Source of the DNA: Candidatus Porifericomitaceae bacterium
Lineage (GTDB): Bacteria > Pseudomonadota > Gammaproteobacteria > Porifericomitales > Porifericomitaceae
Length of the DNA stretch: 64,000 nt
Direction: 5' to 3'
NCBI GenBank assembly: GCA_965212005.1
Contig: OZ243038.1
Span: forward strand, 1,857,440 to 1,921,439
Made by a program: the position numbers and the translations under genes. This document shows positions 6,664-35,913 of the stretch, in pieces. The notes beneath the pieces were generated by a model that was not told the origin of the DNA, searched no databases, and was given only the letters and a program-made list of their open reading frames with translations. Numbering within the stretch: the stretch's first letter is position 1; every line of letters starts with the position of its first letter.

Positions 6664-6842
6664 CCGTGCCGCTCGCACCCACGCGAGTGCCGTTACGCTC
6701 CATTGCGTGATCCGGCCTTGGCGACGGTCTGGCGCCTCAAAGAGTGCGCCGGTTGGCTCTGTGCGCCGTCCGTCCCGGATCGGTTGCGCCGGTCGCCCGG
6801 GTTGACTCACGCCCCGGGGAGCTCGCAGCGCAGGTGACGGCG

Positions 6843-7807: not shown

Positions 7808-7828
7808 ATACCTATCAATACTAACCCA

Positions 7829-9582: not shown

Positions 9583-9622
9583 CTCAAATCAACGGCAGCC
9601 ATTCCAACCCCAAAGGTAACCA

Positions 9623-11719: not shown

Positions 11720-11753
11720 TCCCACTCAAAGCCCGCCAACAAACCACAGCGAA

Positions 11754-11850
11754 CGGCGGTCGTGTCTACCACCCACAAGTTTAGGGGGCAGAAGGAACGG
11801 ACGGAGAGGGGAGTAGTATTTTGCGAATTGAGACCCTTTTCACTACAATG
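11754..11850 (+). repeat. Diverged duplicate of the mod 3' terminus (last ~30 codons), located after the TPR/DUF2971 gene
   Basis: 11757-11832 (cggtcgtgtctaccacccacaagtttagggggcagaaggaac...gtagtattttgcg) aligns at about 70-75% identity with mod 9476-9560 (cagtcgtgttcgccacccacaaatttgtcgggcaaaaggaac...atagtattttgcg). The translation AVVSTTHKFRGQKERTERGVVFCELRPF compares with Mod AVVFATHKFVGQKELTRMGIVFCGLPYG. Confidence 0.8.
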
Positions 11851-11855
11851 AAGTA

Positions 11856-12962: not shown

Positions 12963-12964
12963 TC

Positions 12965-15400: not shown

Positions 15401-16437
15401 ATGATACCTTATTGAAGGCAGATGAACAGTTACTTGTTATGGACTGGCCCAGTCTGCAAAAGATTGATGTACCTTCACTCAAGGCCAGTGACTTATATTT
15501 AGTATGTGTGGGCTTTGAAGATCGGGCTATAGAAACACTTCATCGAATCTGTGAGGCTGGAAGCAGGGAATTTTCGCTTGTTCTAGTGAACTATCGTCCA
15601 GAATATAAAGAGAATAGAAGAGAAGAGATTCTTGAAATCGCACGGCGGGCGGATTTGACAGTGCACGAGATTGTTTATGACCGAGAGAACCCGGCAGGTA
15701 TTGGAAAAGAGCTAGACTTCTCAGCAGATCGGATATTTGTGGATATTTCTGGCATGTCGCGTCTTCTCATAGTCCAAGTCTTGGTAGCACTAATCGGCAT
15801 TCAGGAACGGGCAATAAATATAATTTATGGTGAAGCAGCAGAATATTTCCCTTCTAAAGAACAATTCGAACGAGATCAGGCAAATGATGACAACAATTTG
15901 GAACATAGCTATCTATCTTCCGGGATTTTTGAAATAGCAATAGCGCCCGAATTAAGTTCTGTATCTATGTTAGGTGAAGCAATTAGATTGATAGCATTTC
16001 CATCACTTGATCATGTGCAACTCACCAATGTAATGCAAGAATTGCAACCTACTTATGCAGAATTTATTGATGGCATACCACCTGATGAAGGTAATGAATG
16101 GCGAACGGAAGCAATTCGAATAATTAATCATAGGACTATTAGTGCAGTTAAAAACCCTGTAACTCATCAAGCATCTACACTTGATTATAGAAAGACGTTA
16201 AAAATTTTGCTAGATATATACGAAGAGCGCAGCATGTTTGACCGACTTGTAATTGCGCCAACTGGCAGCAAAATGCAGGCTGTTGCCGTTGGTTTATTGA
16301 GATCTTTTCTTGACGATGTGCAAATTGTTTATCCAACGCCACATATTTTTACACACCCCAAGAGATATACATCTGGACTAAGTCAAATATATGAAGTCCA
16401 TATTCCATCTAAAGAAATACTTGCAAAATTAAAGTGA
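15397..16437 (+). CDS. Hypothetical protein with a Rossmann-like fold and possible CARF/SLOG-like sensor motifs. Translationally coupled to the kinase gene.
   Basis: ATGA overlap with the upstream stop. Beta-strand/Gly patterns (LYLVCVGFEDR, FVDISGMSRLLIV, LVIAPTGSKMQAV) are reminiscent of CARF D-I-T-G-G-x-K signatures. The assignment is speculative. Confidence 0.35.
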   Translation: MNDTLLKADEQLLVMDWPSLQKIDVPSLKASDLYLVCVGFEDRAIETLHRICEAGSREFSLVLVNYRPEYKENRREEILEIARRADLTVHEIVYDRENPAGIGKELDFSADRIFVDISGMSRLLIVQVLVALIGIQERAINIIYGEAAEYFPSKEQFERDQANDDNNLEHSYLSSGIFEIAIAPELSSVSMLGEAIRLIAFPSLDHVQLTNVMQELQPTYAEFIDGIPPDEGNEWRTEAIRIINHRTISAVKNPVTHQASTLDYRKTLKILLDIYEERSMFDRLVIAPTGSKMQAVAVGLLRSFLDDVQIVYPTPHIFTHPKRYTSGLSQIYEVHIPSKEILAKLK

Positions 16438-16502
16438 CTGCAGCAACCGGTAATAATGACAGTCATTTTTAAGGGAAGGAAATTGAGGTGGAAACAAAAT
16501 AA

Positions 16503-19189: not shown

Positions 19190-21463
19190 ATGTCAACCCC
19201 TCCGAAAAAATCAACTAAGTCTATAAAAACCATTGGCGAATTCCTTGACTGGACAGGGAAACAGGAAGGCTCTTTGTTTCTCTATCGCGGAGTGTCTGCT
19301 CCCTACATGGAAATGGAAGCATCGGCATATCGCAGAATAAAGGAGAACCAGGAGGAAGATACGGTTCCTTCAAAAATATTTATCAATTATCACGAGCGAC
19401 TTCTGGATAGAGCCAGATTGGAGGGATTTGACGATCAACAGGGCAAGGATCCTTCCGACCTGGAATTACTTGCCAGGTTACAGCACTATGGCGCGGCAAC
19501 ATGCCTGATTGATTTTACCGCAGACCCTTTGATCGCATTGTGGTTTGCTTGCCAGGGAAGCGGGCAGACAAATGGAAAAGTCGTTGCCATGGCAACGGGT
19601 GATGTCCAAGACTTCGCCGCAGTGAAACACGAAGACTTGAAGAAGCCTGTCAAGGAATTCCTCAAGGAGGAAACACTGTGGAAATGGTCTCCTCGGCGCC
19701 AAAACAATCGCATTATTGCCCAGAAGTCAACGTTTATATTCGGAAAAAGTACGATCCAGGAGAGTTGCTACAAGACTGTCAAGATAGACAAAGAAAGCAA
19801 AGGAAACATTATTAATGAATTGTGGAATAGATTTGAAGTTACTGAGCAGTCCCTTTTTGGCGATTTTGTCGGTTTCTCTCTTGCCAATGCCCACGACAAA
19901 CCTTACAGCGACTATAACTCAGAAGACTATTTTATTTTTGGACTAACCTGCAGTCAGAGAAAAGAGTATCAGAAAGCGATAGATTATTACGACAAGGCGA
20001 TAGCGATTAACCCTGAATATACCGAGGCATATCACAATCGTGGTCATGCAAAGGATGCCTTGAGAAAGTATAAAGGAGCGATATCGGATTATGACAAGGC
20101 GATAGCCATTAATCCTAAATTGGCCGAGGCATATAACAATCGCGGCAATGCAAAGGATGCCATGGGCGAGCATAAAGGAGCGATAGCGGATTATGACAAA
20201 GCGATAGCCATTAATCCTAAATTGGCCGAGGCATATCACAATCGTGGCCATGCAAAGGATGCCATGGGCGAGCATAAAGGAGCGATAGCGTATTATGATA
20301 AGGCGATAGCCATTAACTCTCAATATGTCGAGGCATATACCAATCGCGGAGCTGCAAAGGATGCCTTGGGTGATCATCAAGGAGCGATAGCGGATTACGA
20401 CAAGGCGATAGCCATTAACCCTGAATATGCCGATGCATATAACAATCGCGGCAATGCAAAGAATGTCTTGGGCGAGCATAAAGGAGCGATGGTGGATTAT
20501 GGCAAGGCGATAGACATTAATCCTAAATATGCCGATGCATATTATAATCGCGGCAATGTAATGTATGCCTTGAGCGATCATCAAGGAGCGATAGCGGATT
20601 ATGACGAGGCGATAGCCATTAACTCTCAATATGCCGAGGCATATACCAATCGCGGCCATGCAAAGTATTCTCTGGGTGATCCTCAAGGAGCGATAGCGGA
20701 TTATGACAAGGCGATAGTCATTAATCCTAAATCGGCCGAGGCATATAACAATCGCGGAAATGCAAAGAATGTCTTGGGCGACCATGAAGGAGCGATAGCG
20801 GATTATGGCAATGCGATAGCCATTAATCCTCAATATGCCGAGGCATATAACAATCGCGGCAATACAAAGGGTGCCATGGGTGACCCTCAAGGGGCGATAG
20901 CGGATTATGACAAGGCGATAGTCATTAATCCTAAATTGGCCGAGGTATATAACAATCGCGGAAATGCAAAGAATGTCTTGGGCGACCATGAAGGAGCGAT
21001 AGTGGATTATGACAATGCGATAGCCATTAATCCTCAATATGCCGAGGTATATACCAATCGCGGCAATGCAAAGGGTGCCTTGGGCGACCCTCAAGGGGCG
21101 ATGGCGGATCATGATAAGGCGATAGCCATTAATTCTGAATTGGCCATGGCATATAACAATCGCGGCAATGTAAAGAATGTCTTGGGCGACCATGAAGGAG
21201 CGATGGCGGATTATGACAAGGCGATAGCCATTAATCCCCAATTGGCCATGGCATATAACAATCGCGGCAATGCAAAGAATGTCCTGGGCGACCGTGAAGG
21301 AGCGATAGCGGATTATGACAAGGCGATAGCCATTAATCCTGAATTTGCCATGGCATATAAAAATCGCGGCGATGCAAAGAAAGCCCTGGGCGACCGTGAA
21401 GGAGCGATGGCGGATTATGACCAGGCAATCGCCATTGACCCATCAATACGCCGAGGCATATAA
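19190..21463 (+). CDS. FRG-domain protein fused to a long TPR array (about 16 units)
   Basis: Start at the ATG 19190 (MSTPPKK...). The N-terminal 250 aa carry FLYRGVSAPY and LARLQHYGAATCLIDFTADPLIALWFAC, resembling the FRG-domain signature (FRGQ / QHYGLPTRLLDWT). The rest is 34-aa TPRs (AIADYDKAIAINPKLAEAYNNRGNAKDAMGEHKG). The C-terminus AIAIDPSIRRGI is shared with the downstream family. Confidence 0.7.
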   Translation: MSTPPKKSTKSIKTIGEFLDWTGKQEGSLFLYRGVSAPYMEMEASAYRRIKENQEEDTVPSKIFINYHERLLDRARLEGFDDQQGKDPSDLELLARLQHYGAATCLIDFTADPLIALWFACQGSGQTNGKVVAMATGDVQDFAAVKHEDLKKPVKEFLKEETLWKWSPRRQNNRIIAQKSTFIFGKSTIQESCYKTVKIDKESKGNIINELWNRFEVTEQSLFGDFVGFSLANAHDKPYSDYNSEDYFIFGLTCSQRKEYQKAIDYYDKAIAINPEYTEAYHNRGHAKDALRKYKGAISDYDKAIAINPKLAEAYNNRGNAKDAMGEHKGAIADYDKAIAINPKLAEAYHNRGHAKDAMGEHKGAIAYYDKAIAINSQYVEAYTNRGAAKDALGDHQGAIADYDKAIAINPEYADAYNNRGNAKNVLGEHKGAMVDYGKAIDINPKYADAYYNRGNVMYALSDHQGAIADYDEAIAINSQYAEAYTNRGHAKYSLGDPQGAIADYDKAIVINPKSAEAYNNRGNAKNVLGDHEGAIADYGNAIAINPQYAEAYNNRGNTKGAMGDPQGAIADYDKAIVINPKLAEVYNNRGNAKNVLGDHEGAIVDYDNAIAINPQYAEVYTNRGNAKGALGDPQGAMADHDKAIAINSELAMAYNNRGNVKNVLGDHEGAMADYDKAIAINPQLAMAYNNRGNAKNVLGDREGAIADYDKAIAINPEFAMAYKNRGDAKKALGDREGAMADYDQAIAIDPSIRRGI

Positions 21464-21940
21464 CAATCGCGGCGATGCAAAGAATGCCCTGGGCTACATA
21501 CAGACGGTATCCGCAGGGGAAACAGCAGGTGATGGCTGAAACGAGGGTTCCGTAGGGTAGGCCGGGACGGGTGCACTCCTATCGGACGGGCCCGGGGAGC
21601 CCCGGCGGAAAAGCGGGCAGGTGGTCATGGCCCTCAAAGAGCCAGTGCGACCTGTGCTGGCAGAACGAAACCACTGCTCTGTAACGAAGCTGAGCTGTCG
21701 ACAGCTGCGGGACTGCGCCAGGGCCCGTGCCGGCACCAGCTTACGCACTATACTTTGCTTGTTTTTGGGGGTATCTTTAAGGTTAAGCAGCGGGAAGAGG
21801 AGGCCGTCCGTAGTGGCAGCCATCTTGTTGACTGCATGGTAAAAAAAGCTTTGCGTAACGCCAGGAACGGGGTTTGCAGGCACGTCAGGCAAGAAGGCAA
21901 AGCAGGGGAGGAGCATACCCCTGCCCAAAGGAGTATCGCG
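21464..21940 (+). repeat. Conserved intergenic leader, copy 1 of 5
   Basis: About 470 bp, near-identical to 24305-24778, 27572-28045, 29327-29865 and 31198-31678. It ends with AAAGGAG-N7-GTG. Confidence 0.9.
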
Positions 21941-24304
21941 GTGTCAAAATCGACGAAAAAGCCAGCAGGGGCGAGACCCGCCGTCCGCCCGGCCGGAGGC
22001 TGGCATCCGTTGACGGGGCGCGCCCGTCGCGCCGTGTGCTGCCTGCTGTCCTGCCTGGTGTCGGGCCTGCCCGCGTTGATGCCCATCCCCTCGCTGGCTA
22101 CCGACGTCTACAAGTATCGGGACGACCATCAAGGAGCGATATCGGATTACGACAAAGCGATAGCCATTAATCCTCAAGATGCGAAGGCATATTATAATCG
22201 CGGCAATGCAAAGGATGACCTGGGCGAGCGCCAAGGAGCGATATCGGATTACGATCAGGCGATAGCCATTCACCCTCAAGATGCGAAGGCATATAGCAAT
22301 CGCGGCAATGCAAAGTATGACTTGGGCGACCATCCAGGAGCGATAGCGGATTACGACAAGGCGATAGCCATCAACCCTCAATTTTCCGAGGCATATACCA
22401 CTCGCGGAATTACAAAGAGTGACCTGGGCGACCGTCAAGGAGCGATGGCGGATTATGACAAGGCGATAGCAGAGTACGACAAGGCGATAGCCATTCACCC
22501 TCAATATGCCGAGGCATATAACTATCGCGGAGCTACAAAGCATGTCCTGGGCGACCGTCAAGGAGCGATAACGGATTACGACCAGGCGATAGCCATTCAC
22601 CCTCAATTTGCCGAGGCATATGCCACTCGCGGAGTTACAAAGACTTTCCTGGGCGACCATAAAGGAGCGATAGCGGATTACGACAAGGCGATAGCCATTA
22701 ATCCTCAAGATGTCGTGGTATATAACTTTCGCGGACACACAAAGACTTTCCTGGGCGACGATCAAGGAGCGATAACGGATTACGACCAGGCGATAGCCAT
22801 TAATCCTCAATATGCCGAGGCATATAACTATCGCGGAGCTACAAAGCATGTCCTGGGCGACCCTCAAGGAGCGATAACGGATTACGACCAGGCGATAGCT
22901 ATTAATCCTCAATATGCCGAGGCATATAACAATCGCGGAGCTACAAAGGATGCCTTGGGCGACCATCCAGGAGCGATAGCGGATTATGACAAGGCGATAG
23001 CCATTAACCCTCAATATGCCGAAGCATATAACAATCGCGGAGCTACAAAGGATGCCTTGGGCGACCGTCCAGGAGCGATGGCGGATTATGACCAGGCGAT
23101 AGCCATTAACCCTCAAGATGCTGAGGCATATAACAATCGCGGAGCTACAAAGGGTGACCTGGGCGATCCTCAAGGAGCGATATCGGTTTACGACAAGGCG
23201 ATAGCCATGGCATATTATATTCGCGGATTGATAAAGAATTTCCTGGGTGACGACCCTCAAGGAGCGATAACGGACTACGACAAGGCGATAGCCATTAACC
23301 CTCAATATGCGAAGGCATATAAAAAGCGCGGCGATGCAAAGTATTTTTGGGAAGACGACACTAAAGGAGCGATAACAGATTACGACAAGGCGATAGCCAT
23401 TAACCCTCAATATGTCGAGGCATATAAAAAGCGCAGCCTTGCAAAGCGTTTCCTGGGCGACCGTGAAGGAGCGATATCGGATTACGGCAAGGTGATAGCC
23501 ATTAACCCTCAAGATGAGAATGCATATATTATGCGCGGCTATGTAAAGCGTGACCTGGGCGACCGTGAAGGAGCGATATCGGATTACGACCAGGTGATAG
23601 CCATTAGACCTCAATATGACATTGCATATCGCTGGCGTGGCCTTGTAAAGAATGACCTGGGCGACCGTGAAGGAGCGATATCGGATTACGACCAGGCGAT
23701 AGCCATTAACCCTCAGTATGCGAATGCATATTTTAATCGCGGCTATGCAAAGAATGCCTTGGGCGACCGTGAAGGAGGGATATCAGATTACGACCAGGCG
23801 ATAGCCATTAACCCTAAATTTAACGAGGCATATCGCTTTCGTGGCCTTGTAAAGAATGACCTGGGCGACCGTGAAGGAGCGATAGCGGATTACGACCAGG
23901 CGATAGCCATTAACCCTCGATATGCGAAGGCATATAAAAATCGCGGCAATGCCAAGGATGCTCTGGGCGACCGTGAAGGAGCGATGGCGGATTATGACCA
24001 GGTGATAGCCATTTACGACAAGGAGATCGCCATTGACCCTCAATATGCCGAAGCATATTATGGTCGCGGAGTTGCAAAGGATGCCTTGGGCGATCGTGAA
24101 GGAGCGATGGCGGATTATGACCAGGCGATAGCCATTTACGACAAGGAGATCGCCATCAACCCTCAAGATGCCAAAGCATATTATAATCGCGGCGATGCAA
24201 AGTCTGCCCTGGGCGACCGTGAAGGAGCGATGGCGGATTACGACCAGGCAATCGCCATTGACCCCTCAATCGCCATTAACCCCTTAATACGCCGAGGCAT
24301 ATAA
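21941..24304 (+). CDS. Secreted TPR-array protein (family member 1, about 21 TPR units)
   Basis: GTG start 7 nt after AAGGAG. Signal peptide MSKSTKKPAG...TGRARRAVCCLLSCLVSGLPALMPIPSLA/TD, then 34-aa TPR units with the consensus AI(A/S)DYDQAIAINPQYAEAYNNRGNAKDALGDREG. Confidence 0.85.
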   Translation: MSKSTKKPAGARPAVRPAGGWHPLTGRARRAVCCLLSCLVSGLPALMPIPSLATDVYKYRDDHQGAISDYDKAIAINPQDAKAYYNRGNAKDDLGERQGAISDYDQAIAIHPQDAKAYSNRGNAKYDLGDHPGAIADYDKAIAINPQFSEAYTTRGITKSDLGDRQGAMADYDKAIAEYDKAIAIHPQYAEAYNYRGATKHVLGDRQGAITDYDQAIAIHPQFAEAYATRGVTKTFLGDHKGAIADYDKAIAINPQDVVVYNFRGHTKTFLGDDQGAITDYDQAIAINPQYAEAYNYRGATKHVLGDPQGAITDYDQAIAINPQYAEAYNNRGATKDALGDHPGAIADYDKAIAINPQYAEAYNNRGATKDALGDRPGAMADYDQAIAINPQDAEAYNNRGATKGDLGDPQGAISVYDKAIAMAYYIRGLIKNFLGDDPQGAITDYDKAIAINPQYAKAYKKRGDAKYFWEDDTKGAITDYDKAIAINPQYVEAYKKRSLAKRFLGDREGAISDYGKVIAINPQDENAYIMRGYVKRDLGDREGAISDYDQVIAIRPQYDIAYRWRGLVKNDLGDREGAISDYDQAIAINPQYANAYFNRGYAKNALGDREGGISDYDQAIAINPKFNEAYRFRGLVKNDLGDREGAIADYDQAIAINPRYAKAYKNRGNAKDALGDREGAMADYDQVIAIYDKEIAIDPQYAEAYYGRGVAKDALGDREGAMADYDQAIAIYDKEIAINPQDAKAYYNRGDAKSALGDREGAMADYDQAIAIDPSIAINPLIRRGI

Positions 24305-24778
24305 CCATCGCGACTATGCAGCCCCCTGGTCTACGATAAGACAGTATCCGCAGGGGAAACAGCAGGTGATGCCTGAAACGAGGGTTCCGTAGGGTAGGCC
24401 GGGACGGGCACACTCCTATCGGACGGCCCCGGGGAGGCCCGGCGGAAAAGCGGGCAGATGCCAGGGTCCTCAAAGAGCCAGTGCAATCTGTGTCGGCAGA
24501 ACGAAACCACTGCTCTGCAACGAAGCTGAGCCGCCGACAGCTGCGGGACTGGCACCAGGGCCCGTGCAGGCGCTGCTTACGCACTATACCTTGCTTGTTT
24601 TTTGGGGTATCTTTCAAGGTCAACGCAGCGGGAAGAGGAGGCCGTCCGTAGTGGTCGCCATCTTGTTGACTGCATGGTAAAAAAGCTTTGCGTAACGCCA
24701 GGAACGGGGTTTGCAGGCACGTCAGGCAAGAAGGACAAGCAGGGGAGGGAGCATACCCCTGCCCAAAGGAGTGCCGCA
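24305..24778 (+). repeat. Conserved intergenic leader, copy 2 of 5
   Basis: Near-identical to the other four copies. Confidence 0.9.
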
Positions 24779-27571
24779 GTGGCAAAATTGACGAACAAGC
24801 CAGCAGAGGCGGTATCCGCCGTCAGCCTGGCCCGGCGCCGGGATCCGTTGACGGGGCGCGCCCGTCGCGCCGTGTGCTGCCTGCTGTGCTGCCTGGTGTC
24901 GGGCCTGCCCGCGTTGATACCCATCCCCTCGCTGGCTACCGACGTCTACAAGTATCGGAACGACCTTCAAGGAGCGCTATCGGATTACGACAAAGCGATA
25001 GCCATTAATCCTCAAGATGCCAAGGCATATTACAAACGCGGCAATGCAAAGGCTGCCCTGGGCGACCGTGAAGGAGCGATACCGGATTACGACCAGGCGA
25101 TAGCCATTAACCCTCAATATGCCGGGGCATATTACAATCGCGGACTTACAAAGGATTCTCTGGGCGACCGTGAAGGAGCGATAGCGGATTACGACCAGGC
25201 GATAGCCATTAACCCTCAATATGCCAAGGCATATAACAATCGCGGCTATGTAAAGTCTGCCCTGGGCGACCGTGAAGGAGCGATACCGGATTATGACCAG
25301 GCGATAGCCATTAACCCTCAATATGCCGGGGCATATTACAATCGCGGCAATGCAAAGGCTGCCCTGGGCGACCGTGAAGGAGCGATAGCGGATTACGATC
25401 AGGCGATAGCCATTAACCCTCAATATGCCGAGGCATATTACAATCGCGGACTTACAAAGGATTCTCTGGGCGACCGGGAAGGAGCGATACCGGATTACGA
25501 CCAGGCGATAGCCATTAACCCTCAAGATGCCAAGGCATATAACAATCGCGGCTATGTAAAGGATGCCTTGGGCGACCGGGAAGGAGCGATAGCGGATTAC
25601 GACCAGGCGATAGCCATTAACCCTCAATATGCCGGGGCATATTACAATCGCGGCAATGCAAAGTCTGCCCTGGGCGACCGGGAAGGAGCGATACCGGATT
25701 ACGATCAGGCGATAGCCATTAACCCTCAATATGCCGAGGCATATTACAATCGCGGACTTACAAAGGATTCTCTGGGCGACCGGGAAGGAGCGATAACGGA
25801 TTACGACCAGGCGATAGCCATTAACCCTCAAGATGCCAAGGCATATAACAATCGCGGCTATGTAAAGGATGCCTTGGGCGACCGGGAAGGAGCGATAGCG
25901 GATTACGACCAGGCGATAGCCATTAACCCTCAATATGCCGGGGCATATTACAATCGCGGCAATGCAAAGGATGCTCTGGGCGACCGGGAAGGAGCGATAA
26001 CGGATTACGATCAGGCGATAGCCATTAACCCTCAAGATGCCAAGGCATATAACAATCGCGGCTATGCAAAGAAAGCCTTGGGCGACCGGGAAGGAGCGAT
26101 AACGGATTACGATCAGGCGATAGCCATTAACCCTCAAGATGCCAAGGCATATAACAATCGCGGTAATGCAAAGAAAGCCTTGGGCGACCGGGAAGGAGCG
26201 ATAACGGATTACGACCAGGCGATAGCCATTAACCCTCAATATGCCAAGGCATATAACAATCGCGGCAATGCAAAGAAAGCTCTGGGCGACCGTGAAGGAG
26301 CGATGGCGGATTATGACAAGGCGATAGCCATTAACCCTCAAGGAGCGATATCGGTTTACGACAAGGCGATAGCCATGGCATATTATATTCGCGGATTTAT
26401 AAAGGATATCCTGGGCGGCCGTGAAGGAGCGATAGCGGATTACGACAAGGCGATAGCCATTAACCCTCAATATACGAAGGCATATAAAAATCGCGGCGAT
26501 GCAAAGTTTTTCCTGGGTGACGACCCTCAAGGAGCGATAACGGATTACGATAAGGCGATAGCCATTAACCCTCAAGATGCCGAGGCATATAAAAAGCGCG
26601 GCCAAGCAAAGCGTTTCCTGGGCGACCGTGAAGGAGCGATAGCGGATTACGATAAGGCGATAGCCATTAACCCTCAAGATGCCGAGGCATATAACAATCG
26701 CAGCTCCGTGAAGCGTTCCCTGGGCGACCGTGAAGGAGCGATATCGGATTACGGCAAGGTGATAGCCATTAACCCTCAAGATGAGCATGCATATATTATG
26801 CGCGGCTATGTAAAGCGTGACCTGGGCGACCGTGAAGGAGCGATATCGGATTACGACCAGGTGATAGCCATTAGACCTCAATATGACATTGCATATCGCT
26901 GGCGTGGCCTTGTAAAGAATGACCTGGGCGACCGTGAAGGAGCGATATCGGATTACGACCAGGCGATAGCCATTAACCCTCAGTATGCGAATGCATATTT
27001 TAATCGCGGCTATGCAAAGAATGCCTTGGGCGACCGTGAAGGAGGGATATCAGATTACGACCAGGCGATAGCCATTAACCCTAAATTTAACGAGGCATAT
27101 CGCTTTCGTGGCCTTGTAAAGAATGACCTGGGCGACCGTGAAGGAGCGATAGCGGATTACGACCAGGCGATAGCCATTAACCCTCGATATGCGAAGGCAT
27201 ATAAAAATCGCGGCAATGCCAAGGATGCTCTGGGCGACCGTGAAGGAGCGATGGCGGATTATGACCAGGTGATAGCCATTTACGACAAGGAGGTCGCCAT
27301 TGACCCTCAATATGCCGAAGCATATTATGGTCGCGGAGTTGCAAAGGATGCCTTGGGCGATCGTGAAGGAGCGATGGCGGATTATGACCAGGCGATAGCC
27401 ATTTACGACAAGGAGATCGCCATCAACCCTCAAGATGCCAAAGCATATTATAATCGCGGCGATGCCAAGGATGCCCTGGGCGACCGTGAAGGAGCGATGG
27501 CGGATTACGACAAGGCAATCGCCATTGACCCCTCAATTGCCATTAACCCCTTAATACGCCGAGGCATATAA
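24779..27571 (+). CDS. Secreted TPR-array protein (family member 2, about 25 TPR units)
   Basis: Same Shine-Dalgarno/GTG start and signal peptide (MAKLTNKPAEAVSAVSLARRRDPLTGRARRAVCCLLCCLVSGLPALIPIPSLATD). It contains 306-bp higher-order repeats. The C-terminal ~300 aa are nearly identical to member 1. Confidence 0.85.
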   Translation: MAKLTNKPAEAVSAVSLARRRDPLTGRARRAVCCLLCCLVSGLPALIPIPSLATDVYKYRNDLQGALSDYDKAIAINPQDAKAYYKRGNAKAALGDREGAIPDYDQAIAINPQYAGAYYNRGLTKDSLGDREGAIADYDQAIAINPQYAKAYNNRGYVKSALGDREGAIPDYDQAIAINPQYAGAYYNRGNAKAALGDREGAIADYDQAIAINPQYAEAYYNRGLTKDSLGDREGAIPDYDQAIAINPQDAKAYNNRGYVKDALGDREGAIADYDQAIAINPQYAGAYYNRGNAKSALGDREGAIPDYDQAIAINPQYAEAYYNRGLTKDSLGDREGAITDYDQAIAINPQDAKAYNNRGYVKDALGDREGAIADYDQAIAINPQYAGAYYNRGNAKDALGDREGAITDYDQAIAINPQDAKAYNNRGYAKKALGDREGAITDYDQAIAINPQDAKAYNNRGNAKKALGDREGAITDYDQAIAINPQYAKAYNNRGNAKKALGDREGAMADYDKAIAINPQGAISVYDKAIAMAYYIRGFIKDILGGREGAIADYDKAIAINPQYTKAYKNRGDAKFFLGDDPQGAITDYDKAIAINPQDAEAYKKRGQAKRFLGDREGAIADYDKAIAINPQDAEAYNNRSSVKRSLGDREGAISDYGKVIAINPQDEHAYIMRGYVKRDLGDREGAISDYDQVIAIRPQYDIAYRWRGLVKNDLGDREGAISDYDQAIAINPQYANAYFNRGYAKNALGDREGGISDYDQAIAINPKFNEAYRFRGLVKNDLGDREGAIADYDQAIAINPRYAKAYKNRGNAKDALGDREGAMADYDQVIAIYDKEVAIDPQYAEAYYGRGVAKDALGDREGAMADYDQAIAIYDKEIAINPQDAKAYYNRGDAKDALGDREGAMADYDKAIAIDPSIAINPLIRRGI
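25090..26010 (+). repeat. Higher-order tandem repeat of 306 bp (3 TPR units: LTKDSL / YVKDAL / NAK(S/A)AL), about 3 copies, inside TPR member 2
   Basis: Near-perfect nucleotide identity between successive 306-bp blocks (for example 25130-25435 versus 25436-25741 versus 25742-26047). Confidence 0.8.
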
Positions 27572-28045
27572 CCATCGCGGTTATGCAGCCCCCTGATCTA
27601 CGATAAGACAGTATCCACAGGGGAAACGGCAGGGGATGCCTGAAACGAGGGTTCCGTAGGGTAGGCTGAGCCGGGCGCACTCCTATCGGACGGCCTCGGG
27701 GAGGCCCGGCGGAAAAGCGGGCAGATGCCGGGGTCCTCAAAGAGCCAGTGCAATCTGTGTCGGCAGAACGAAACCACTGCTCTGCAACGAAGCTGAGCCG
27801 CCGACAGCTGCGGGACTGGCACCAGGGCCCGTGCAGGCGCTGCTTACGCACTATACCTTGCTTGTTTTTTGGGGTATCTTTCAAGGTCAACGCAGCGGGA
27901 AGAGGAGGCCGCCCGTAGTGGCCGCCATCTTGTTGACTGCATGGTAAAAAAGCTTTGCGTAATGCCAGGAACGGGGTTTGCAGGCAGGTCAGGCAAGAAG
28001 GCAAAGCAGGGAAGGGAGCATACCCCTGCCCAAAGGAGTGTCGCG
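27572..28045 (+). repeat. Conserved intergenic leader, copy 3 of 5
   Basis: Near-identical to the other four copies. Confidence 0.9.
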
Positions 28046-29326
28046 GTGGCAAAATCGACGAACAAGCCAGCAGGGGCGGTATCCGCCGTCAGCCCGGCTC
28101 GGTGCCGGGATCCGTTGACGGGGCGCGCCCGTCGCGCCGTGTGCTGTCTGCTGTCCTGCCTGGTGTCGGGCCTGTCCGCGTTGATGCCCATCCCCTCGCT
28201 GGCTACCGACGTCTACAAGTATCGGGACGACCCTCAAGGAGCGCTATCGGATTACGACCAGGCGATAGCCATCAATCCTCAAGATGCCGAGGCATATTAC
28301 AATCGCGGAGTTAAAAAGCATGCCCAGGGCGACCCTCAAGGAGCGCTATCGGATTACGACCAGGCGATAGCCATCAACCCTCAAGATGCCGAGGCATATT
28401 ACAAACGCGGCAATGCAAAGAAAGCCCTGGGCGACCGTGAAGGAGCGATAACGGATTACGGCCAGGCGATAGCCATTAACCCTCAGGATTTCAAGGCATA
28501 TAACAATCGCGGCAATGCAAAGGATGATCTGGGCGACCGTGAAGGAGCGATAACGGATTATGACCAGGCGATAGCCATCAACCCTCAAGGTGTCGTGGCA
28601 TATTTCAATCGCGGCAATGCAAAGCATGACCTGGGCGACCATCAGGGAGCGATATCGGATTACGACCAGGCGATAGCCATTAACCCTCAATTGGCCGATG
28701 CATATTATGGTCGCGGAGATACAAAGCATGTCCTGGACGATTATCAAGGAGCGATAGCGGATTATGATAAGGCGATAGCTATCAACCCTCAATATGCCGA
28801 GGCATATTGGAGGCGCGGCAATTCAAAGTATATCCTAGGCGATCATCAAGGAGCGCTATCGGATTACGACCAGGCGATAGCCATTAACCCTCAAGATGCG
28901 AAGGCATATTATAATCGCGGCAATGCAAAGGATGCTCTGGGCGACCGTCAAGGAGCGATAGCGGATTACGACCAGGCGATAGCCATTAACCCTCAAGATG
29001 CGAAGGCATATAACAATCGCGGCAATGCAAAGAATGCCCTAGGCGACCCTCAAGGAGCGATGGCAGATTACGACAAGGCGATAGCCATTAATTTTCGAGA
29101 TGCCTATGCATATCACAATCGCGGACGTACAAAGCATGACCTGGGCGACCCTCAAGGAGCGATGGCAGATTACGACAAGGCGATAGCCATTAACCCTCAA
29201 TATGCCGATGCATATTACAATCGCGGAGCTACAAAGTATGCCCTGGGCGACCGTGAAGGAGCGATGGCGGATTATGACAAGGCAATCGCCATTGACCCAT
29301 CAATACGCCGAGATATATCACAATAG
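28046..29326 (+). CDS. Secreted TPR-array protein (family member 3, about 11 TPR units)
   Basis: Same Shine-Dalgarno/GTG start and signal peptide, followed by the TPR array. Confidence 0.85.
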   Translation: MAKSTNKPAGAVSAVSPARCRDPLTGRARRAVCCLLSCLVSGLSALMPIPSLATDVYKYRDDPQGALSDYDQAIAINPQDAEAYYNRGVKKHAQGDPQGALSDYDQAIAINPQDAEAYYKRGNAKKALGDREGAITDYGQAIAINPQDFKAYNNRGNAKDDLGDREGAITDYDQAIAINPQGVVAYFNRGNAKHDLGDHQGAISDYDQAIAINPQLADAYYGRGDTKHVLDDYQGAIADYDKAIAINPQYAEAYWRRGNSKYILGDHQGALSDYDQAIAINPQDAKAYYNRGNAKDALGDRQGAIADYDQAIAINPQDAKAYNNRGNAKNALGDPQGAMADYDKAIAINFRDAYAYHNRGRTKHDLGDPQGAMADYDKAIAINPQYADAYYNRGATKYALGDREGAMADYDKAIAIDPSIRRDISQ

Positions 29327-29865
29327 CGGCAATGCAAAGAAAGCCCCCTGGTCTACGATAAGACAGTATCCGCGGGGGAAACGGCGGGGATGCCTGCAAC
29401 GAGGGTTCCGTAGGGTAGGCTGAGCCGGGCGCACTCCTATCGGACGGACCTCGGGGATGCCCTGCGGAAAAGCGGGCAGATGCCAGAGCCTCAAAAGAGC
29501 CGGTGCGATCGGTGCCGGCAGAACGAAACCACTGCTCTGCAACGAAGCTAAGCCGTCGGCAGCTGCGGGACTGGCACAAGGGCTCGCGCCGGTGCCAGTT
29601 TGCGTACTATACTTTTCTTGTTTTTTTGAGGTATCTTTAAGGTAAGTGACTGTTATATTGGAGGAAGATATTACTATACTTTGCTTGTTTTTGAGGGTAT
29701 CTTTAAGTTTAAGCAGTGGGAAGAGGAGGCCGCCCGTAGTGGCCGCCATCTTGTTGACTGCATGGTAAAAAAGCTTTGCGTAATGCCAGGAACGGGGTTT
29801 GCAGGCACGTCAGGCCAGAAGGCAAAGCAGGGGAGGAGCATACCCCTGCCCAAAGGAGTGCCGCG
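29327..29865 (+). repeat. Conserved intergenic leader, copy 4 of 5 (contains an internal ~65-bp duplication)
   Basis: The module ctatacttt(g/t)cttgttttt...gtatctttaag occurs twice (29608-29650 and 29677-29720), separated by an AT-rich spacer. Confidence 0.9.
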
Positions 29866-31197
29866 GTGGCAAAATTGACGAACAAGCCAGCAGGGGCGAT
29901 ATCCGCCGTCAGCCTGGCCCGGCGCCGGCATCCGTTGACGGGGCGCGCCCGTTGCGCCGTGTGTTGCCTGCTGTCCTGCCTGGTGTCGGGCCTACCCGCG
30001 TTGACGCCCATCCCCTCGCTGGCCACCGACGTCTACAAGTATCGAGGCGACCATCAAGGATCGATAGCGGATTACGACCAGGCGATAGCCATTAACCCTC
30101 AAGATGCCGAGGCATATAACAATCGCGGAGTTAAAAAGCATGCCCAGGGCGACCTTCAGGGAGCGATAGTGGATTATGACAAGGCGATAGCCATTAACCC
30201 TCAATATGCCGAAGCATATTACAATCGCGGAGCTACAAAGGATGCCCTGGGCGACCGTCAAGGAGCGATAGTGGATTATGACAAGGCGATAGCCATTAAC
30301 CCTCAATATGCCGAAGCATATTACAATCGCGGAGCTACAAAGGTTGCCCTGCTAGACCCTCAAGGAGCGCTATCGGATTACGACCAGGCGATAGCCATTA
30401 ACCCTCAATTTAGCCCGGTATATATCTACCGCAGCGATGCAAAGGGTGCCTTGGGCGACCATGAAGGAGTGATATCAGATTACGACCAGATGATAGCCAT
30501 TAACCCTCAAGATGCTGGGGCATATGTCTCACGCGGCAGGGCAAAGTATGACCAGGGCGACCGTGAAGGAGCGCTATCGGATTACGACCAGGCGATAGCC
30601 ATTGACCCTCAATATGACATTGCATATAGCTGGCGTGGCGATGCAAAGTCTGCCCTGGGCGACCATGAAGGAGCGCTATCGGATTACGACCAGGCGATAG
30701 CCATTAGCCCTCAATATGCGAAGGCATCTAAGGCAAAGGCATATAAAAGTCGCGGCGATGCAAAGTCTGCCCTGGGCGACCATGAAGGAGCGCTATCGGA
30801 TTACGACCAGGCGATAGCCATTAGCCCTCAATATGCGAAGGCATCTAAAGCGAAGGCATATAAAAATCGCGGCGATGCAAAGAATGCCCTGAGCGACCAT
30901 GAAGGAGCGCTATCGGATTACGACGAGGCGATAGCCATTAACCCTCAATATGCGAAGGCATATATCAATCGCGGCGATGCAAAGGATGACTTGGGCGACC
31001 GTGAAGGAGCAATGGCGGATTATGACCAAGCGAGAGCCATTTACGACAAGGAGATAGCCATTGACCCTCAAGATGCCGAAGCATATAAAAATCGCGGCGA
31101 TGCCAAGGATGCCCTGGGCGACCGTGAAGGAGCGATGGCGGATTACGACCAGGCAATCGCCATTGACCCCTCAATACGCCAGGGCATATCACAATAG
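29866..31197 (+). CDS. Secreted TPR-array protein (family member 4, about 12 TPR units)
   Basis: Same Shine-Dalgarno/GTG start and signal peptide, followed by the TPR array. Confidence 0.85.
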   Translation: MAKLTNKPAGAISAVSLARRRHPLTGRARCAVCCLLSCLVSGLPALTPIPSLATDVYKYRGDHQGSIADYDQAIAINPQDAEAYNNRGVKKHAQGDLQGAIVDYDKAIAINPQYAEAYYNRGATKDALGDRQGAIVDYDKAIAINPQYAEAYYNRGATKVALLDPQGALSDYDQAIAINPQFSPVYIYRSDAKGALGDHEGVISDYDQMIAINPQDAGAYVSRGRAKYDQGDREGALSDYDQAIAIDPQYDIAYSWRGDAKSALGDHEGALSDYDQAIAISPQYAKASKAKAYKSRGDAKSALGDHEGALSDYDQAIAISPQYAKASKAKAYKNRGDAKNALSDHEGALSDYDEAIAINPQYAKAYINRGDAKDDLGDREGAMADYDQARAIYDKEIAIDPQDAEAYKNRGDAKDALGDREGAMADYDQAIAIDPSIRQGISQ

Positions 31198-31678
31198 CGG
31201 CAATGCAAAGAAAGTCTCCTGGGCTACATAAGACAGTATCCGCAGAGGAAACGGCAGGGGCGGCCTGAAACGAGGGTTCCGTAGGGTAGGCCGGGACGGG
31301 CGCACTCCTATCGGACGGGCCCCAGGCCCGGGGCCGCCCGGCTCAAAAGCGGGCAGATGCCGGGGCCCTCAAAGAGCCAGTGCGACCGGTGTCGGCAGAA
31401 CGAACCCACTGCTATGCAACGAAGCTAAGCCGCCGGCAAGGCGCGGGACTGGCACCAAGGCTCATGCAGGCACCAGCTTACGCACTATACTTTGCGTGTT
31501 TTTTGAGGTATCTTTAAGGGCAAGCAGCGGGAAGAGGAGGCCGTCCGTAGTGGCCGCCATCTTGTTGACTGCATGGTAAAAAAAGCTTTGCGTAACGCCA
31601 GGAACGGGGTTTGCAAGCACGTCAGGCAAGAAGGACAAGCAGGGGAGGGAGCATACCCCTGCCCAAAGGAGTGTCGCG
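31198..31678 (+). repeat. Conserved intergenic leader, copy 5 of 5
   Basis: Near-identical to the other four copies. It precedes the lytic transglycosylase gene. Confidence 0.9.
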
Positions 31679-32416
31679 GTGGCAAAATCGACGAACAAGC
31701 CAGCAGGGGCGGTATCCGCCGTCAGCCCGGCCCGGTGCCGGGACCCGTTGACGGGGCGCGCCCGTCGCGCCGTGTGCTGCCTGCTGTCTTGCCTGCTGTC
31801 GGGCCTGCCCGCGTTGATGCCCATCCCCTCGCTGGCTACCGACGTCTACAAGTATCGGGACGACCGGGGACGCACGCTCTTCACCGACCGTAAGAGTAGT
31901 GGGCGCTCCCTGCAATACATAGGCAAATGGAGTTGGAAGTCGTGGATGCAGCGGCGTTTCAATCCCTACTTGTGCCTGGCGAACCGCGATCGTTTCAACG
32001 CGCTGATCGAAGATGCGGCATACCGCCATCATCTGTCCGTGGCGCTCGTGCACTCGGTGATCAGCGCTGAATCCTGTTATGACCCCAAGGCCATTTCCAG
32101 GGCGGGCGCCGTCGGCTTGATGCAGCTGATGCCTGGGACCGCGCGGCGCTATGGAGTGGATGATCGGTACGATCCTGCGCAGAACTTGAACGGGGGCACC
32201 CGCTACTTGCGCGATCTTTTGAATATGTTCCGGGGCGATCTGAAGCTGGCTTTGGCGGCGTACAACGCCGGGGAGAACGTGGTCATCCGCTACGGGTTCG
32301 CGATCCCTCCTTACCCGGAGACGCAGCAGTACGTGGGGAAGGTGCTGCAAAACTACAATCAAAATCTATCCCGCTTTCCAGAGCGGCGCGCTCAGCCTGC
32401 TTCTTCCCGCAGTTAG
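31679..32416 (+). CDS. Lytic transglycosylase (SLT domain) carrying the same signal peptide as the TPR family
   Basis: GTG start after AAGGAG. Signal peptide MAKSTNKPAG...RRAVCCLLSCLLSGLPALMPIPSLATDVYKYRDD. SLT catalytic motifs (ESCYDPKAIS with the catalytic Glu, GLMQLMPGTA, AAYNAGENVV). Confidence 0.85.
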   Translation: MAKSTNKPAGAVSAVSPARCRDPLTGRARRAVCCLLSCLLSGLPALMPIPSLATDVYKYRDDRGRTLFTDRKSSGRSLQYIGKWSWKSWMQRRFNPYLCLANRDRFNALIEDAAYRHHLSVALVHSVISAESCYDPKAISRAGAVGLMQLMPGTARRYGVDDRYDPAQNLNGGTRYLRDLLNMFRGDLKLALAAYNAGENVVIRYGFAIPPYPETQQYVGKVLQNYNQNLSRFPERRAQPASSRS

Positions 32417-32459
32417 CTTGCGGGCGGCAACGGATGCACGAATTGCGAAGCAAACGCAG

Positions 32460-34391: not shown

Positions 34392-34449
34392 ACGTCCGAT
34401 GCCGGTACCGGCGGGCGCGCTGGTGTCCCTGCCGCCGCGCCGCTTGTCG

Positions 34450-35876: not shown

Positions 35877-35913
35877 CCGCCCAGTTACGCGGCTTGGAAT
35901 TACGGAGCGTGGG

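What the first reader, a model, noticed from the sequence alone, without database searches (positions are those of the whole stretch)
21464..32416. Tandem family: four secreted TPR-array proteins plus one SLT lytic transglycosylase, each behind the same ~470-nt leader, Shine-Dalgarno/GTG start and signal peptide
Five consecutive genes share a near-identical upstream region, an AAGGAG-N7-GTG start and the signal peptide M(A/S)KSTNKPAG...GRARRAVCCLLSCLVSGLPALMPIPSLA-TDVYKYRDD. Four of them continue as TPR arrays of different length (about 11-25 units) and the fifth as an SLT-domain murein transglycosylase. This looks like repeated duplication of the promoter, leader and signal-peptide module of the slt gene, each copy fused to a variable TPR cargo. 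Functionally this recalls Legionella EnhC, a periplasmic Sel1/TPR-like repeat protein that binds and inhibits Slt. The TPR paralogues could modulate the co-encoded transglycosylase or cell-wall fragment release. Array length differences and near-identical repeats suggest a contingency, variable-surface locus. The 3' end of every gene is a TPR unit truncated by a 1-nt insertion, leaving a frameshifted TPR remnant after the stop.
Basis: partly seen in the sequence, partly recalled or inferred. Interest (0 to 1): 0.75.

Follow-up and report, generated by a model that had tools for sequence, protein, structure and literature searches.

The report
Secreted TPR genes born by duplication
One accidental tandem duplication fused the export signal of a cell-wall enzyme gene (slt) to the repeat array of a neighbouring candidate phage-defence gene, and the resulting chimeric gene was then copied to four diverged copies that all still read as intact, probably periplasmic, repeat proteins.

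Summary
Five copies of a 474-539-nt leader, an AAGGAG-N7-GTG start and a 53-residue signal peptide precede four TPR-array genes and one DUF4124-SLT transglycosylase gene.

The gene just upstream (19190-21463) is an FRG-domain + TPR protein, a candidate phage-defence family (PADLOC PDC-S15). It has the same frameshifted 3' end and is followed by the first leader copy.

All four chimeras share one junction: slt ...GACGACC | ATCAAGGAGCG... TPR, with 5 nt of microhomology. That points to a single illegitimate recombination that made a tandem duplication, followed by amplification, not to repeated independent fusions.

In relatives, pgpA and slt are adjacent. Here about 24 kb lie between them: a type III restriction-modification island, the FRG-TPR gene and the amplified units.

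The arrays look constrained as proteins. About 8 kb stays open although the flanking leaders differ by 4-16% and carry 12 frame-breaking indels. Scaffold pN/pS is about 0.2. Variation is concentrated in TPR helix A.

The EnhC-like Slt-inhibitor idea has no support. The contingency-locus idea cannot be tested, because no second genome carries the locus. The leader shows no RNA-family match, no unusual fold and no homologue elsewhere. The function of the proteins is inferred only.

The parts
6744..7361 (+). pgpA, the ancestral upstream neighbour of slt
   Evidence: Pfam PgpA 6.7e-40. In 12 of 80 related loci and in L082/L083, pgpA lies directly upstream of slt.
7927..19049 (+). Low-GC defence island: type III mod and res genes with four genes inserted between them
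   Evidence: PADLOC MTase_III 2.3e-179 and REase_III 1.4e-208; a kinase-AAA gene and a CARF-like gene. GC is 0.39-0.54 against about 0.60 for the backbone.
19190..21463 (+). FRG-domain + TPR-array gene (F), the donor of the TPR arrays; 14 anchor motifs and no signal peptide
   Evidence: Pfam FRG 3.5e-15 plus TPR_1 1e-121. PADLOC PDC-S15 1.6e-28. 1382 homologues, most with the FRG+TPR architecture. Same frameshifted 3' end as T1-T4.
21464..21940 (+). Leader copy 1; its first ~100 nt are a frameshifted TPR remnant
21941..24304 (+). T1: signal peptide + 9-residue Slt stub + TPR array (787 aa); fusion joint at 22127|22128
24305..24778 (+). Leader copy 2
24779..27571 (+). T2: chimera, 930 aa; joint at 24965|24966; N-terminal half has a 306-nt (3-unit) higher-order repeat; last ~800 nt are 99-100% identical to T1
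27572..28045 (+). Leader copy 3
28046..29326 (+). T3: chimera, 426 aa; joint at 28232|28233
   Evidence: AlphaFold2 model: residues 1-60 have pLDDT below 50; residues 63-426 are paired helices with pLDDT above 90.
29327..29865 (+). Leader copy 4, with a 67-nt internal duplication of the T-run segment
29866..31197 (+). T4: chimera, 443 aa; joint at 30052|30053; RARR changed to RARC in the n-region
31198..31678 (+). Leader copy 5, directly upstream of slt
31679..32416 (+). slt: signal peptide + DUF4124-like start + SLT domain (245 aa); the point equivalent to the fusion joint is 31865|31866
   Evidence: Pfam SLT 2.4e-28; DUF4124 at 20.5 bits, below its cut-off of 22. Family alignment with invariant E131-S132. 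The exact protein is P0001, found on one 2.54-Mb contig only.

Best explanation
Origin (well supported).
- Ancestrally, slt sat directly behind pgpA.
- A foreign low-GC defence island inserted between them. It ends in an FRG-domain + TPR-array gene (F). FRG is an ADP-ribosyltransferase-superfamily domain proposed as an antiviral NADase effector (PMC9503650).
- One microhomology-mediated illegitimate recombination joined slt codon 63 (...TAT CGG GAC GAC C|) to a TPR unit inside F (...GGC GAC C|AT CAA GGA GCG).
- That produced a tandem duplication of [rest of the array + spacer + slt 5' end]. Its single novel joint is an in-frame chimera: the slt upstream region, Shine-Dalgarno/GTG start, signal peptide and nine mature residues, fused to an effector-less TPR array.
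- Unequal homologous recombination then amplified the unit to four copies. Unit-level recombination and gene conversion changed array lengths (11 to 26 units) and left mosaic identity between copies.

What the genes do (inferred).
- Each copy makes a Sec-type pre-protein that signal peptidase I cleaves after PSLA, releasing a TPR superhelix into the periplasm.
- The arrays have been kept as folded proteins while residues in helix A vary, so they most likely act as periplasmic binding proteins with diversified specificities.
- They were inherited from an immune sensor, so a role in conflict is the most plausible (binding phage or competitor proteins in the envelope). This last step is a guess.
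- Export, expression and the ligand are all untested.
For: Direction of the fusion.
- The signal peptide followed by ADIYKY.D..GR..TDR is the family-wide N-terminus of DUF4124-SLT proteins.
- FRG+TPR is a widespread architecture: 1382 homologues, typically 320-485 aa.
- The signal peptide-stub-TPR combination was found nowhere else.

Single event.
- The junction is identical in T1-T4, with 5 nt of shared CGACC and 7 of 8 matching.
- The 1-nt frameshift at the 3' end is shared by F and all four chimeras, so it predates the duplication.

Insertion.
- The order SQS_PSY-pgpA-slt is contiguous in L082/L083, with a 141-nt spacer, and pgpA abuts slt in 12 of 80 loci.
- Here 24 kb intervene. GC is 0.39-0.54 in the island, 0.47 in the F array and 0.59-0.61 in the leaders.

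Ongoing recombination.
- The last ~800 nt of T1 and T2 are 99-100% identical, while the adjoining leaders are 94-97% identical.
- There are 306-nt and 117-nt higher-order repeats.

Constraint on the proteins.
- The leaders differ by 4-16% and have 14 gap runs, 12 of them not multiples of 3. The ~7.2 kb of array sequence simulated (about 8 kb of chimeric coding sequence in all) has no stop and only in-frame indels.
- With only 2% random substitution per site, all four arrays stayed open in 0.25% of simulations.
- Between positionally matched segments of paralogous arrays, scaffold pN/pS is 0.21 and hypervariable-site pN/pS is 2.57. Among all 65 units the values are 0.23 and 2.2.
- The variable sites are canonical TPR positions 2, 5, 6, 9, 10, 12, 13 and 34. 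All but position 34, which lies in the loop just before it, lie in helix A of the model.
- In the signal peptide, the h/c-region has pN/pS 0.52 and the n-region 2.1. The Shine-Dalgarno sequence and the GTG are invariant.

Signal peptide features, read directly from the sequence: a basic n-region, about 20 uncharged residues (AVCCLLSCLVSGLPALMPIP), and S-L-A before the aligned cleavage point of the homologues.
Against: - There is no expression, export or binding evidence of any kind.
- No signal-peptide predictor was available. The very stable consensus-like TPR fold may be a poor Sec substrate. The RARR motif could mean Tat export, and T4 has lost the second Arg.
- The hypervariable sites were chosen after looking at the data. 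Positional homology between arrays is uncertain because units shuffle. Part of the scaffold/hypervariable contrast may therefore date from before the fusion.
- Gene conversion from the functional F array could help keep the chimeras open without selection on them.
- No sigma-70-like promoter was found in any leader.
- The locus is known from a single genome, so neither its age nor its persistence in a population can be judged.
Confidence: 0.6

Rival explanations
1. By-product without function. The chimeras are neutral leftovers of a segmental amplification, for example one once selected for dosage of slt or of the FRG-TPR gene. They look intact only because they are young or are repeatedly overwritten by gene conversion.
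For: One junction gave rise to all copies. The locus is unique to one genome. The 3' ends of T1 and T2 are 99-100% identical, which shows recent conversion or duplication. No promoter was recognised in the leaders.
Against: The flanking non-coding leaders have diverged 4-16% and carry 12 frame-breaking indels, while about 8 kb of array coding sequence has none and no stop. The simulated probability that all four stay open is 0.0025 or less. Scaffold pN/pS is 0.21 between paralogous arrays. The T arrays have drifted to GC 0.52-0.54, against 0.47 in F, so they are not fresh copies of F.
Confidence: 0.2
2. One reading: the TPR paralogues are EnhC-like periplasmic regulators or inhibitors of the co-encoded Slt, controlling release of cell-wall fragments.
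For: The genes are adjacent to slt and share its upstream region. If that region holds the promoter, this would give co-regulation and the same compartment. There is a precedent that a repeat protein can inhibit Slt (EnhC; PMC9867486).
Against: Adjacency and the shared leader are by-products of the duplication. EnhC has Sel1 repeats, and no Sel1 hit appears for T3. The arrays derive from a cytoplasmic defence-type protein. Among the 80 related slt loci, TPR-array matches occur in only two and at no consistent position. Hypervariability at the binding face fits many or changing ligands, not one conserved housekeeping enzyme.
Confidence: 0.07
3. Contingency (phase- or antigen-variable) surface locus. 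Rapid gain and loss of repeats and recombination between copies generate population-level variation of an exposed protein.
For: The 102-nt units match at 81-89% and some blocks at 96-100%. Array lengths differ more than two-fold. Identity between copies is mosaic.
Against: Repeat-number changes are in frame, so they do not switch the genes on or off. No simple-sequence tract lies in the coding region or start region; the A6/A7 run lies in the leader. There is no anchor or outer-membrane targeting feature, and the lipobox-like LLSC is not conserved (T2 has LLCC). No strain data exist.
Confidence: 0.08
4. The conserved leader is itself the functional element, such as a structured RNA, a riboswitch-like regulator or a mobile cassette end. 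The genes would then be carried along with it.
For: The last ~115 nt before the GTG are the best-conserved segment (94-97%), better than the signal-peptide coding region. A conserved 7-bp hairpin precedes the Shine-Dalgarno sequence.
Against: There is no Rfam match at gathering or relaxed thresholds. Folding energy is not different from shuffles (z = +0.78 and -0.07). At most 3 of 88 and 0 of 53 predicted pairs show compensatory change. There is no copy elsewhere in the window and no match in genome, metagenome or viral collections, and no similarity to 80 slt loci. The first ~100 nt are ex-coding TPR sequence.
Confidence: 0.05

Closest known systems
FRG-domain + TPR proteins (Pfam PF08867 with TPR; PADLOC candidate defence system PDC-S15)
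   Same: The upstream gene F is a member. The units of T1-T4 are of the same type (GAIADYDKAI.(I/L)NPQYAEAYNNRG.AK) as in FRG-TPR homologues.
   Different: T1-T4 lack the FRG domain and carry a signal peptide instead. Homologues have about 2-6 TPR units and a C-terminal cap. F has 14 units and the chimeras 11-26, and all end in a frameshift.
DUF4124-SLT small lytic transglycosylases of Gammaproteobacteria
   Same: The fifth gene is a member at 45-60% identity, with the catalytic E-S motif and an N-terminal signal peptide + (A/T)D(V/I)YKY start. T1-T4 share its first 62 codons.
   Different: T1-T4 keep only nine residues of the mature protein and have no SLT domain. This slt copy is separated from pgpA by 24 kb.
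Highly internally conserved TPR/ANK/WD repeat arrays of NLR-type immune receptors (fungal NLRs, PMC4986451; bacterial conflict systems, PMC7159879)
   Same: Near-consensus repeats, differences in repeat number, signs of concerted evolution, and variation focused on helix-A positions (for the fungal arrays, PMC4986451 maps such sites to the concave face).
   Different: There is no NTPase or effector domain. The product is predicted to be exported rather than cytoplasmic. Internal identity (81-89% at the DNA level) is lower than in the most extreme cases. No diversity-generating retroelement is involved.
Legionella EnhC (Sel1-repeat inhibitor of Slt)
   Same: A periplasmic alpha-solenoid repeat protein in a genome that also encodes a soluble lytic transglycosylase.
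   Different: It belongs to a different repeat family (Sel1-like; no Sel1 hit here). There is no evolutionary link and no evidence of binding. The linkage to slt here is an accident of the duplication.
Engineered consensus TPR proteins (CTPR) and the OGT TPR superhelix
   Same: These are the best sequence matches among solved structures (9qhb, 2.6e-95; 8bu0; 1w3b). The predicted structure is a continuous helix-turn-helix solenoid.
   Different: The proteins here are natural, carry a signal peptide, and vary at the positions that are fixed in the designed proteins.

Membership tests
SLT-domain lytic transglycosylase (gene 31679-32416) | SLT domain with the catalytic Glu-Ser motif | tested here: met
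   PF01464 2.4e-28. E131 and S132 are invariant in the 13-sequence alignment.
SLT-domain lytic transglycosylase (gene 31679-32416) | N-terminal DUF4124 module after the signal peptide, as in the closest homologues | tested here: inconclusive
   PF13511 scores 20.5 bits, below its cut-off of 22. However, the TDVYKYRDDRGRTLFTDR segment aligns with the family motif.
SLT-domain lytic transglycosylase (T1-T4) | SLT domain present | tested here: not met
   Similarity between T4 and slt stops at the joint (30052 / 31865), and all four chimeras share that joint; after it they are TPR units only.
Classic 34-residue TPR proteins (T1-T4, F) | Tandem 34-aa helix-turn-helix units matching TPR profiles | tested here: met
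   TPR_1 7.9e-86 (T3) and 1e-121 (F). 102-nt period. Model shows paired helices with pLDDT above 90.
FRG-TPR / PADLOC PDC-S15 candidate defence proteins | N-terminal FRG domain | tested here: met
   Met for F only: PF08867 3.5e-15 and PDC-S15 1.6e-28. T1-T4 begin with the slt signal peptide instead, so they are derivatives, not members.
FRG-TPR / PADLOC PDC-S15 candidate defence proteins | Demonstrated anti-phage activity | not testable with these tools
   PDC-S15 is a candidate system only. The NADase role of FRG is a prediction (PMC9503650).
EnhC-type Sel1-repeat Slt inhibitors | Sel1-like repeats (PF08238) | tested here: not met
   No Sel1 family among the 24 Pfam hits of T3 at E <= 0.01.
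EnhC-type Sel1-repeat Slt inhibitors | Physical binding to and inhibition of Slt | not testable with these tools
   This needs biochemistry.
Sec/SPase I secreted proteins (T1-T4, Slt) | Basic n-region, hydrophobic h-region, small residues at -3 and -1 | tested here: inconclusive
   The features are visible in the sequence, and the cleavage point aligns with that of homologues. h/c-region pN/pS is 0.52. No predictor or experiment was available. The RARR motif leaves Tat export open.
Diversity-generating retroelement targets | Nearby reverse transcriptase and template repeat; adenine-specific variation | tested here: not met
   None of the 23 window proteins scanned against Pfam, all the long ORFs from 1316 to 54161, is a reverse transcriptase. 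Variation per consensus base is A 0.108, C 0.159, G 0.121 and T 0.066.
Contingency (phase-variable) loci | Frame- or promoter-switching simple repeats and variation between strains | not testable with these tools
   Only one genome carries the locus. The repeats are 102 nt and in frame.
Known structured RNA families (leader) | Match to an Rfam covariance model, or a stable covarying fold | tested here: not met
   no credible hit; z about 0; almost no compensatory pairs.

The most novel reading that the evidence does not exclude
A cytoplasmic immune-sensor array has been re-targeted to the periplasm. On this reading the four diverged, effector-less hypervariable TPR superhelices act as exported binders that neutralise phage or competitor proteins in the cell envelope. 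That would be an extracytoplasmic, antibody-like arm derived from an FRG-TPR defence gene, created in one step by capture of a promoter and signal peptide.
Probability: 0.12. Interest if true: 0.8.

Novelty: new variant of a known kind. Interest (0 to 1): 0.45.

Why it matters
This is an unusually legible natural example of gene birth by a duplication junction in a bacterium. Both parent genes, the microhomology joint and four diverged descendants lie side by side, so every step of the origin can be read from the sequence.

It shows how a repeat array from a defence-island protein can acquire a new cellular address in one event and then expand.

If the products are really exported and bind foreign proteins, the idea of hypervariable repeat sensors would extend from the cytoplasm to the cell envelope. 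If they are not, the locus is still a useful warning that shared leaders and adjacency can arise by mechanism rather than by function.

Tried and rejected
Leader as a structured RNA:
- Rfam at gathering and relaxed thresholds gave only sub-threshold noise.
- Single-sequence folds of both strands had z-scores near 0.
- Alignment folds showed hardly any compensatory pairs.

Leader as a decayed gene or conserved slt upstream region:
- tblastx and blastn against 80 slt loci gave only low-complexity noise.
- Comparison with the pgpA-slt spacers of L081 and L082 and with the window's own pgpA-mod spacer gave nothing.

Sigma-70 promoter or intrinsic terminator in the leaders: none is conserved.

Other genomes or strains:
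- Leader 23-mer in genome contigs: 0 hits.
- Leader 22-mer in metagenome contigs: 0 hits.
- Leader 20-mer in viral contigs: 0 hits.
- Signal-peptide/stub 20-mer in metagenome contigs: one hit (L084). It lies in an unrelated protein (...GRTDVYKYRNGAV...) and is a chance match.

Protein look-ups:
- A signal-peptide-only protein query returned nothing, probably because of the word index, since even P0001 was not retrieved.
- Exact look-ups of T3 and T4 were not in the collection.
- Contig look-ups of P0001 and TyrS were not on record, so the organism could not be named. The nearest Slt relatives are uncultured Gammaproteobacteria, Chromatiales and Methylococcales MAGs at 60% identity or less.

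Diversity-generating retroelement: rejected.

Upstream ATG as the true start: rejected. Leader indels put it in frame only in T1-T3 and it has no Shine-Dalgarno sequence. The GTG start matches the public protein record for Slt (P0001, 245 aa).

Lipoprotein signal (LLSC): not conserved in T2 or in homologues.

Assembly artefact: unlikely, because the copies differ by 4-16%.

Full report
**1. What is in the sequence**

All genes from 7927 to 35646 lie on the + strand. The region 21464-32416 contains five copies of one module:
- a non-coding leader of 477, 474, 474, 539 and 481 nt;
- the motif AAAGGAG-N7-GTG;
- 62 codons coding for M/V-AKSTNKPAG...GRARRAVCCLLSCLVSGLPALMPIPSLA-TDVYKYRDD.

The copies are 84-97% identical, depending on the segment. 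The first ~260 nt after the remnant are 84-96% identical, the last ~115 nt before the GTG 94-97%, and the signal-peptide region 90-96%. No further copy exists in the 64-kb window.

After codon 62, four genes continue as 34-residue TPR arrays:
- T1, 21941-24304, 787 aa;
- T2, 24779-27571, 930 aa;
- T3, 28046-29326, 426 aa;
- T4, 29866-31197, 443 aa.

They have 21, 26, 11 and 11 anchor motifs, and Pfam TPR_1 reaches 7.9e-86 for T3. The fifth gene (31679-32416, 245 aa) carries an SLT domain (2.4e-28).

All arrays end ...AIAIDPS-IRRGI* (or ...ISQ*). The cause is one extra base relative to a normal unit, and a frameshifted TPR remnant follows the stop.

**2.

The gene ending at 21463, one base before the stated start, is an FRG-domain protein with a 14-unit TPR array of the same type (F, 19190-21463):
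- Pfam FRG 3.5e-15 and TPR_1 1e-121;
- PADLOC candidate defence family PDC-S15, 1.6e-28.

F has no signal peptide. It ends in the same frameshifted ...AIAIDPSIRRGI* and is followed by leader copy 1. In F the +1 frame still reads QYAEAYNNRGDAKNALGYIQTVSAGETAGDG*, so the first ~100 nt of the 'leader' are former coding sequence.

FRG+TPR is a common architecture, with 1382 homologues, the best at 58% identity. They usually have 320-485 aa, which corresponds to about 2-6 units plus a C-terminal cap. FRG belongs to the ADP-ribosyltransferase superfamily and has been proposed as an antiviral NADase effector (PMC9503650).

**3. Surroundings**

F is the last gene of a low-GC island (GC 0.39-0.54 against about 0.60 for the backbone). 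The island holds:
- a type III restriction-modification pair, mod 7927-9582 and res 16503-19049;
- between them, a second TPR protein, a methyltransferase, a Ser/Thr-kinase + ORC/Cdc6-like ATPase and a CARF-like protein.

In relatives slt directly follows pgpA. pgpA abuts slt in 12 of 80 related loci. In L082/L083 the order dnaX-ybaB-recR...SQS_PSY-pgpA-slt matches this window exactly up to pgpA, with a 141-nt spacer. Here pgpA ends at 7361 and slt starts at 31679, so about 24 kb have been inserted.

The leaders have backbone-like GC (0.59-0.61) and the F array 0.47. The origin of the roughly 370 nt of leader beyond the remnant stays unresolved.

**4. How the family arose**

The signal peptide followed by A|(T/A)D(V/I)YKY.D..GR..(F/L)TDR is the standard N-terminus of DUF4124-SLT proteins. 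The shared module therefore belongs to slt, and the TPR genes carry only a nine-residue stub of the mature enzyme.

At the DNA level:
- slt reads ...TATCGGGACGACC|GGGGACGC...;
- TPR units read ...CTGGGCGACC|ATCAAGGAGCG...;
- T1 reads ...TATCGGGACGACC|ATCAAGGAGCG..., and T2-T4 read the same apart from one to three substitutions.

The joint is at the same nucleotide in all four genes: 22127|22128, 24965|24966, 28232|28233 and 30052|30053. It lies in 5 nt of microhomology (CGACC; 7 of 8 matching).

A tandem duplication reaching from inside the F array to slt codon 63 creates exactly one novel joint and exactly this gene order: F - leader - chimera - leader - slt. One illegitimate recombination followed by amplification through unequal homologous exchange explains four things at once:
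- the shared junction;
- the shared 3' frameshift;
- the leader after F;
- the position of slt at the end.

Repeated independent fusions would not give identical joints.

Later exchanges are visible:
- The last ~800 nt of T1 and T2 are 99-100% identical, while the adjoining leaders are 94-97% and the following arrays 70-89% identical.
- T2 contains a 306-nt three-unit higher-order repeat, and T4 a 117-nt variant unit in 2.8 copies at 96%.
- T1/T2 and T3/T4 form pairs by their first units.

**5. Are the chimeras more than debris?**

Several results say they have been kept as proteins.
- The leaders that flank them differ by 4-16% and show 14 gap runs, 12 of them not multiples of three. The ~7.2 kb of array sequence tested (about 8 kb of chimeric coding sequence in all) has no stop, and the arrays contain only in-frame length changes.
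- With as little as 2% random substitution per site, all four arrays stayed open in only 0.25% of simulations; at 4% none did.
- Between positionally matched segments of different arrays, scaffold codons have pN/pS 0.21 and the eight most variable codons 2.57. Among all 65 complete units the values are 0.23 and 2.2.
- The variable positions are canonical TPR positions 2, 5, 6, 9, 10, 12, 13 and 34. In the AlphaFold2 model of T3, all but position 34 (D80, in the loop just before the helix) fall in helix A (residues 63-426 have pLDDT above 90, residues 1-60 below 50). From general knowledge of TPR structure, and as reported for fungal NLR TPR arrays (PMC4986451), these helix-A residues line the concave, ligand-binding face.
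- Within the signal peptide, the hydrophobic and cleavage regions are conserved (pN/pS 0.52) while the n-region is free to vary (2.1). The Shine-Dalgarno sequence and the GTG are invariant.

Caveats:
- The variable sites were picked after seeing the data.
- Unit shuffling blurs positional homology.
- Gene conversion from F could help to keep the frames open.
- T-array GC (0.52-0.54) has moved away from that of F (0.47), which argues against very recent copying.

**6. Most likely working**

The organisation and the origin are shown. The rest is inferred. Each gene is translated from the GTG behind the strong Shine-Dalgarno sequence. The pre-protein is exported, most likely by Sec with cleavage after PSLA; Tat export is not excluded because of the RARR motif. 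A TPR superhelix of 11-26 units is released into the periplasm.

The scaffold is conserved and helix A is diversified, within arrays and between them. The products are therefore best seen as periplasmic binding proteins with differing specificities. Given their descent from an immune-type sensor array, a role in conflict is my preferred guess, at modest probability. That role would be binding phage or competitor proteins in the envelope.

**7. Rivals**

- A pure by-product of amplification is the main rival, but it fits poorly with the maintenance of open frames.
- The EnhC-like Slt-regulator idea rests only on adjacency, which the duplication explains. EnhC is a Sel1-repeat protein (PMC9867486), no Sel1 family matches T3, and among the 80 related slt loci TPR-array matches occur in only two, at no consistent position.
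- A classical contingency locus is not indicated, because repeat changes are in frame. Strain variation cannot be assessed.
- A functional RNA in the leader is not supported.
- A diversity-generating retroelement is excluded within the window.

**8. Novelty and limits**

Each ingredient is known: TPR arrays, FRG-TPR defence candidates, DUF4124-SLT enzymes, internally conserved hypervariable repeat arrays in immune receptors, and gene fusion at duplication joints.

The combination is new. An effector-less immune-type array has been placed behind a captured upstream region and export signal, then amplified and diversified, with both parent genes still in place.

The locus is known from one genome only. 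The Slt protein is a singleton cluster on a single 2.54-Mb contig, and the next relative is 60% identical. All DNA-pattern scans were negative or chance matches. Population-level claims and function therefore remain open.

Noticed in passing
window 7927-19049: The type III restriction-modification genes mod (7927-9582) and res (16503-19049) are split by four inserted genes: a protein with 9 TPR units plus a ~350-aa C-terminal domain with no Pfam match (9623-11719), a DNA methyltransferase (11856-12962), a Ser/Thr kinase fused to an ORC/Cdc6-like ATPase (12965-15400; PADLOC CARF_STK_AAA) and a CARF-like protein (15397-16437). This is possibly a composite defence system.
   Followed up: partly
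window 7362-7926 (motif at 7778-7807; hairpins at 7844-7882): The 565-nt non-coding stretch between pgpA and mod has backbone-like GC (0.60). It contains TTGACA-N18-TATAAG, followed about 40 nt later by GC-rich hairpins with T-runs. This could be a very short transcript or the control region of the island. The promoter scan did not call it because the last base of the -10 hexamer is G.
   Followed up: partly
window 29327-29865 (leader copy 4): A 67-nt insertion duplicates the 'CACTATACTTTGCTTGTTTTTTGGGGTATCTTTAAGG' segment of the leader, so this copy has the T-run region twice.
   Followed up: no
leaders, about 105 nt (A-run) and about 35 nt (G-run) upstream of each GTG (e.g. 21838-21844 and 21907-21912): An A6/A7 run and a G-run indel vary between copies. 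In leader 1 the two changes compensate. As a result an upstream ATG (MVKK...) is in frame with the gene in T1, T2 and T3 but not in T4 or slt. This is probably chance, but the homopolymer tracts are potential slippage sites.
   Followed up: partly
window 23498-24298 vs 26768-27568: The C-terminal ~800 nt of T1 and T2 are 99-100% identical, although the flanking leaders are only 94-97% identical. This indicates recent gene conversion, or a possible collapse point for assemblers.
   Followed up: partly
T1, T2 and T4 C-terminal units (e.g. 23879-24320, 27146-27526, 30918-31151) and T4 30637-30961: There are non-canonical unit lengths: 41-residue units with an inserted 'YDKEIAI' (a partial duplication of helix B), and 39-residue units with an inserted 'KASKA'. 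All are in frame.
   Followed up: no
window 32418-37863 vs loci L081, L082: Downstream synteny of slt differs from relatives. Here htpG, tyrS and ftsH follow; in the closest metagenomic relatives ruvB-tolQRAB follow. slt has therefore been rearranged on both sides in this lineage.
   Followed up: no
L084 1460-1479: The only database match to the signal-peptide/stub 20-mer lies in an unrelated large secreted protein (...GRTDVYKYRNGAV...). It is a chance match, not a relative.
   Followed up: yes
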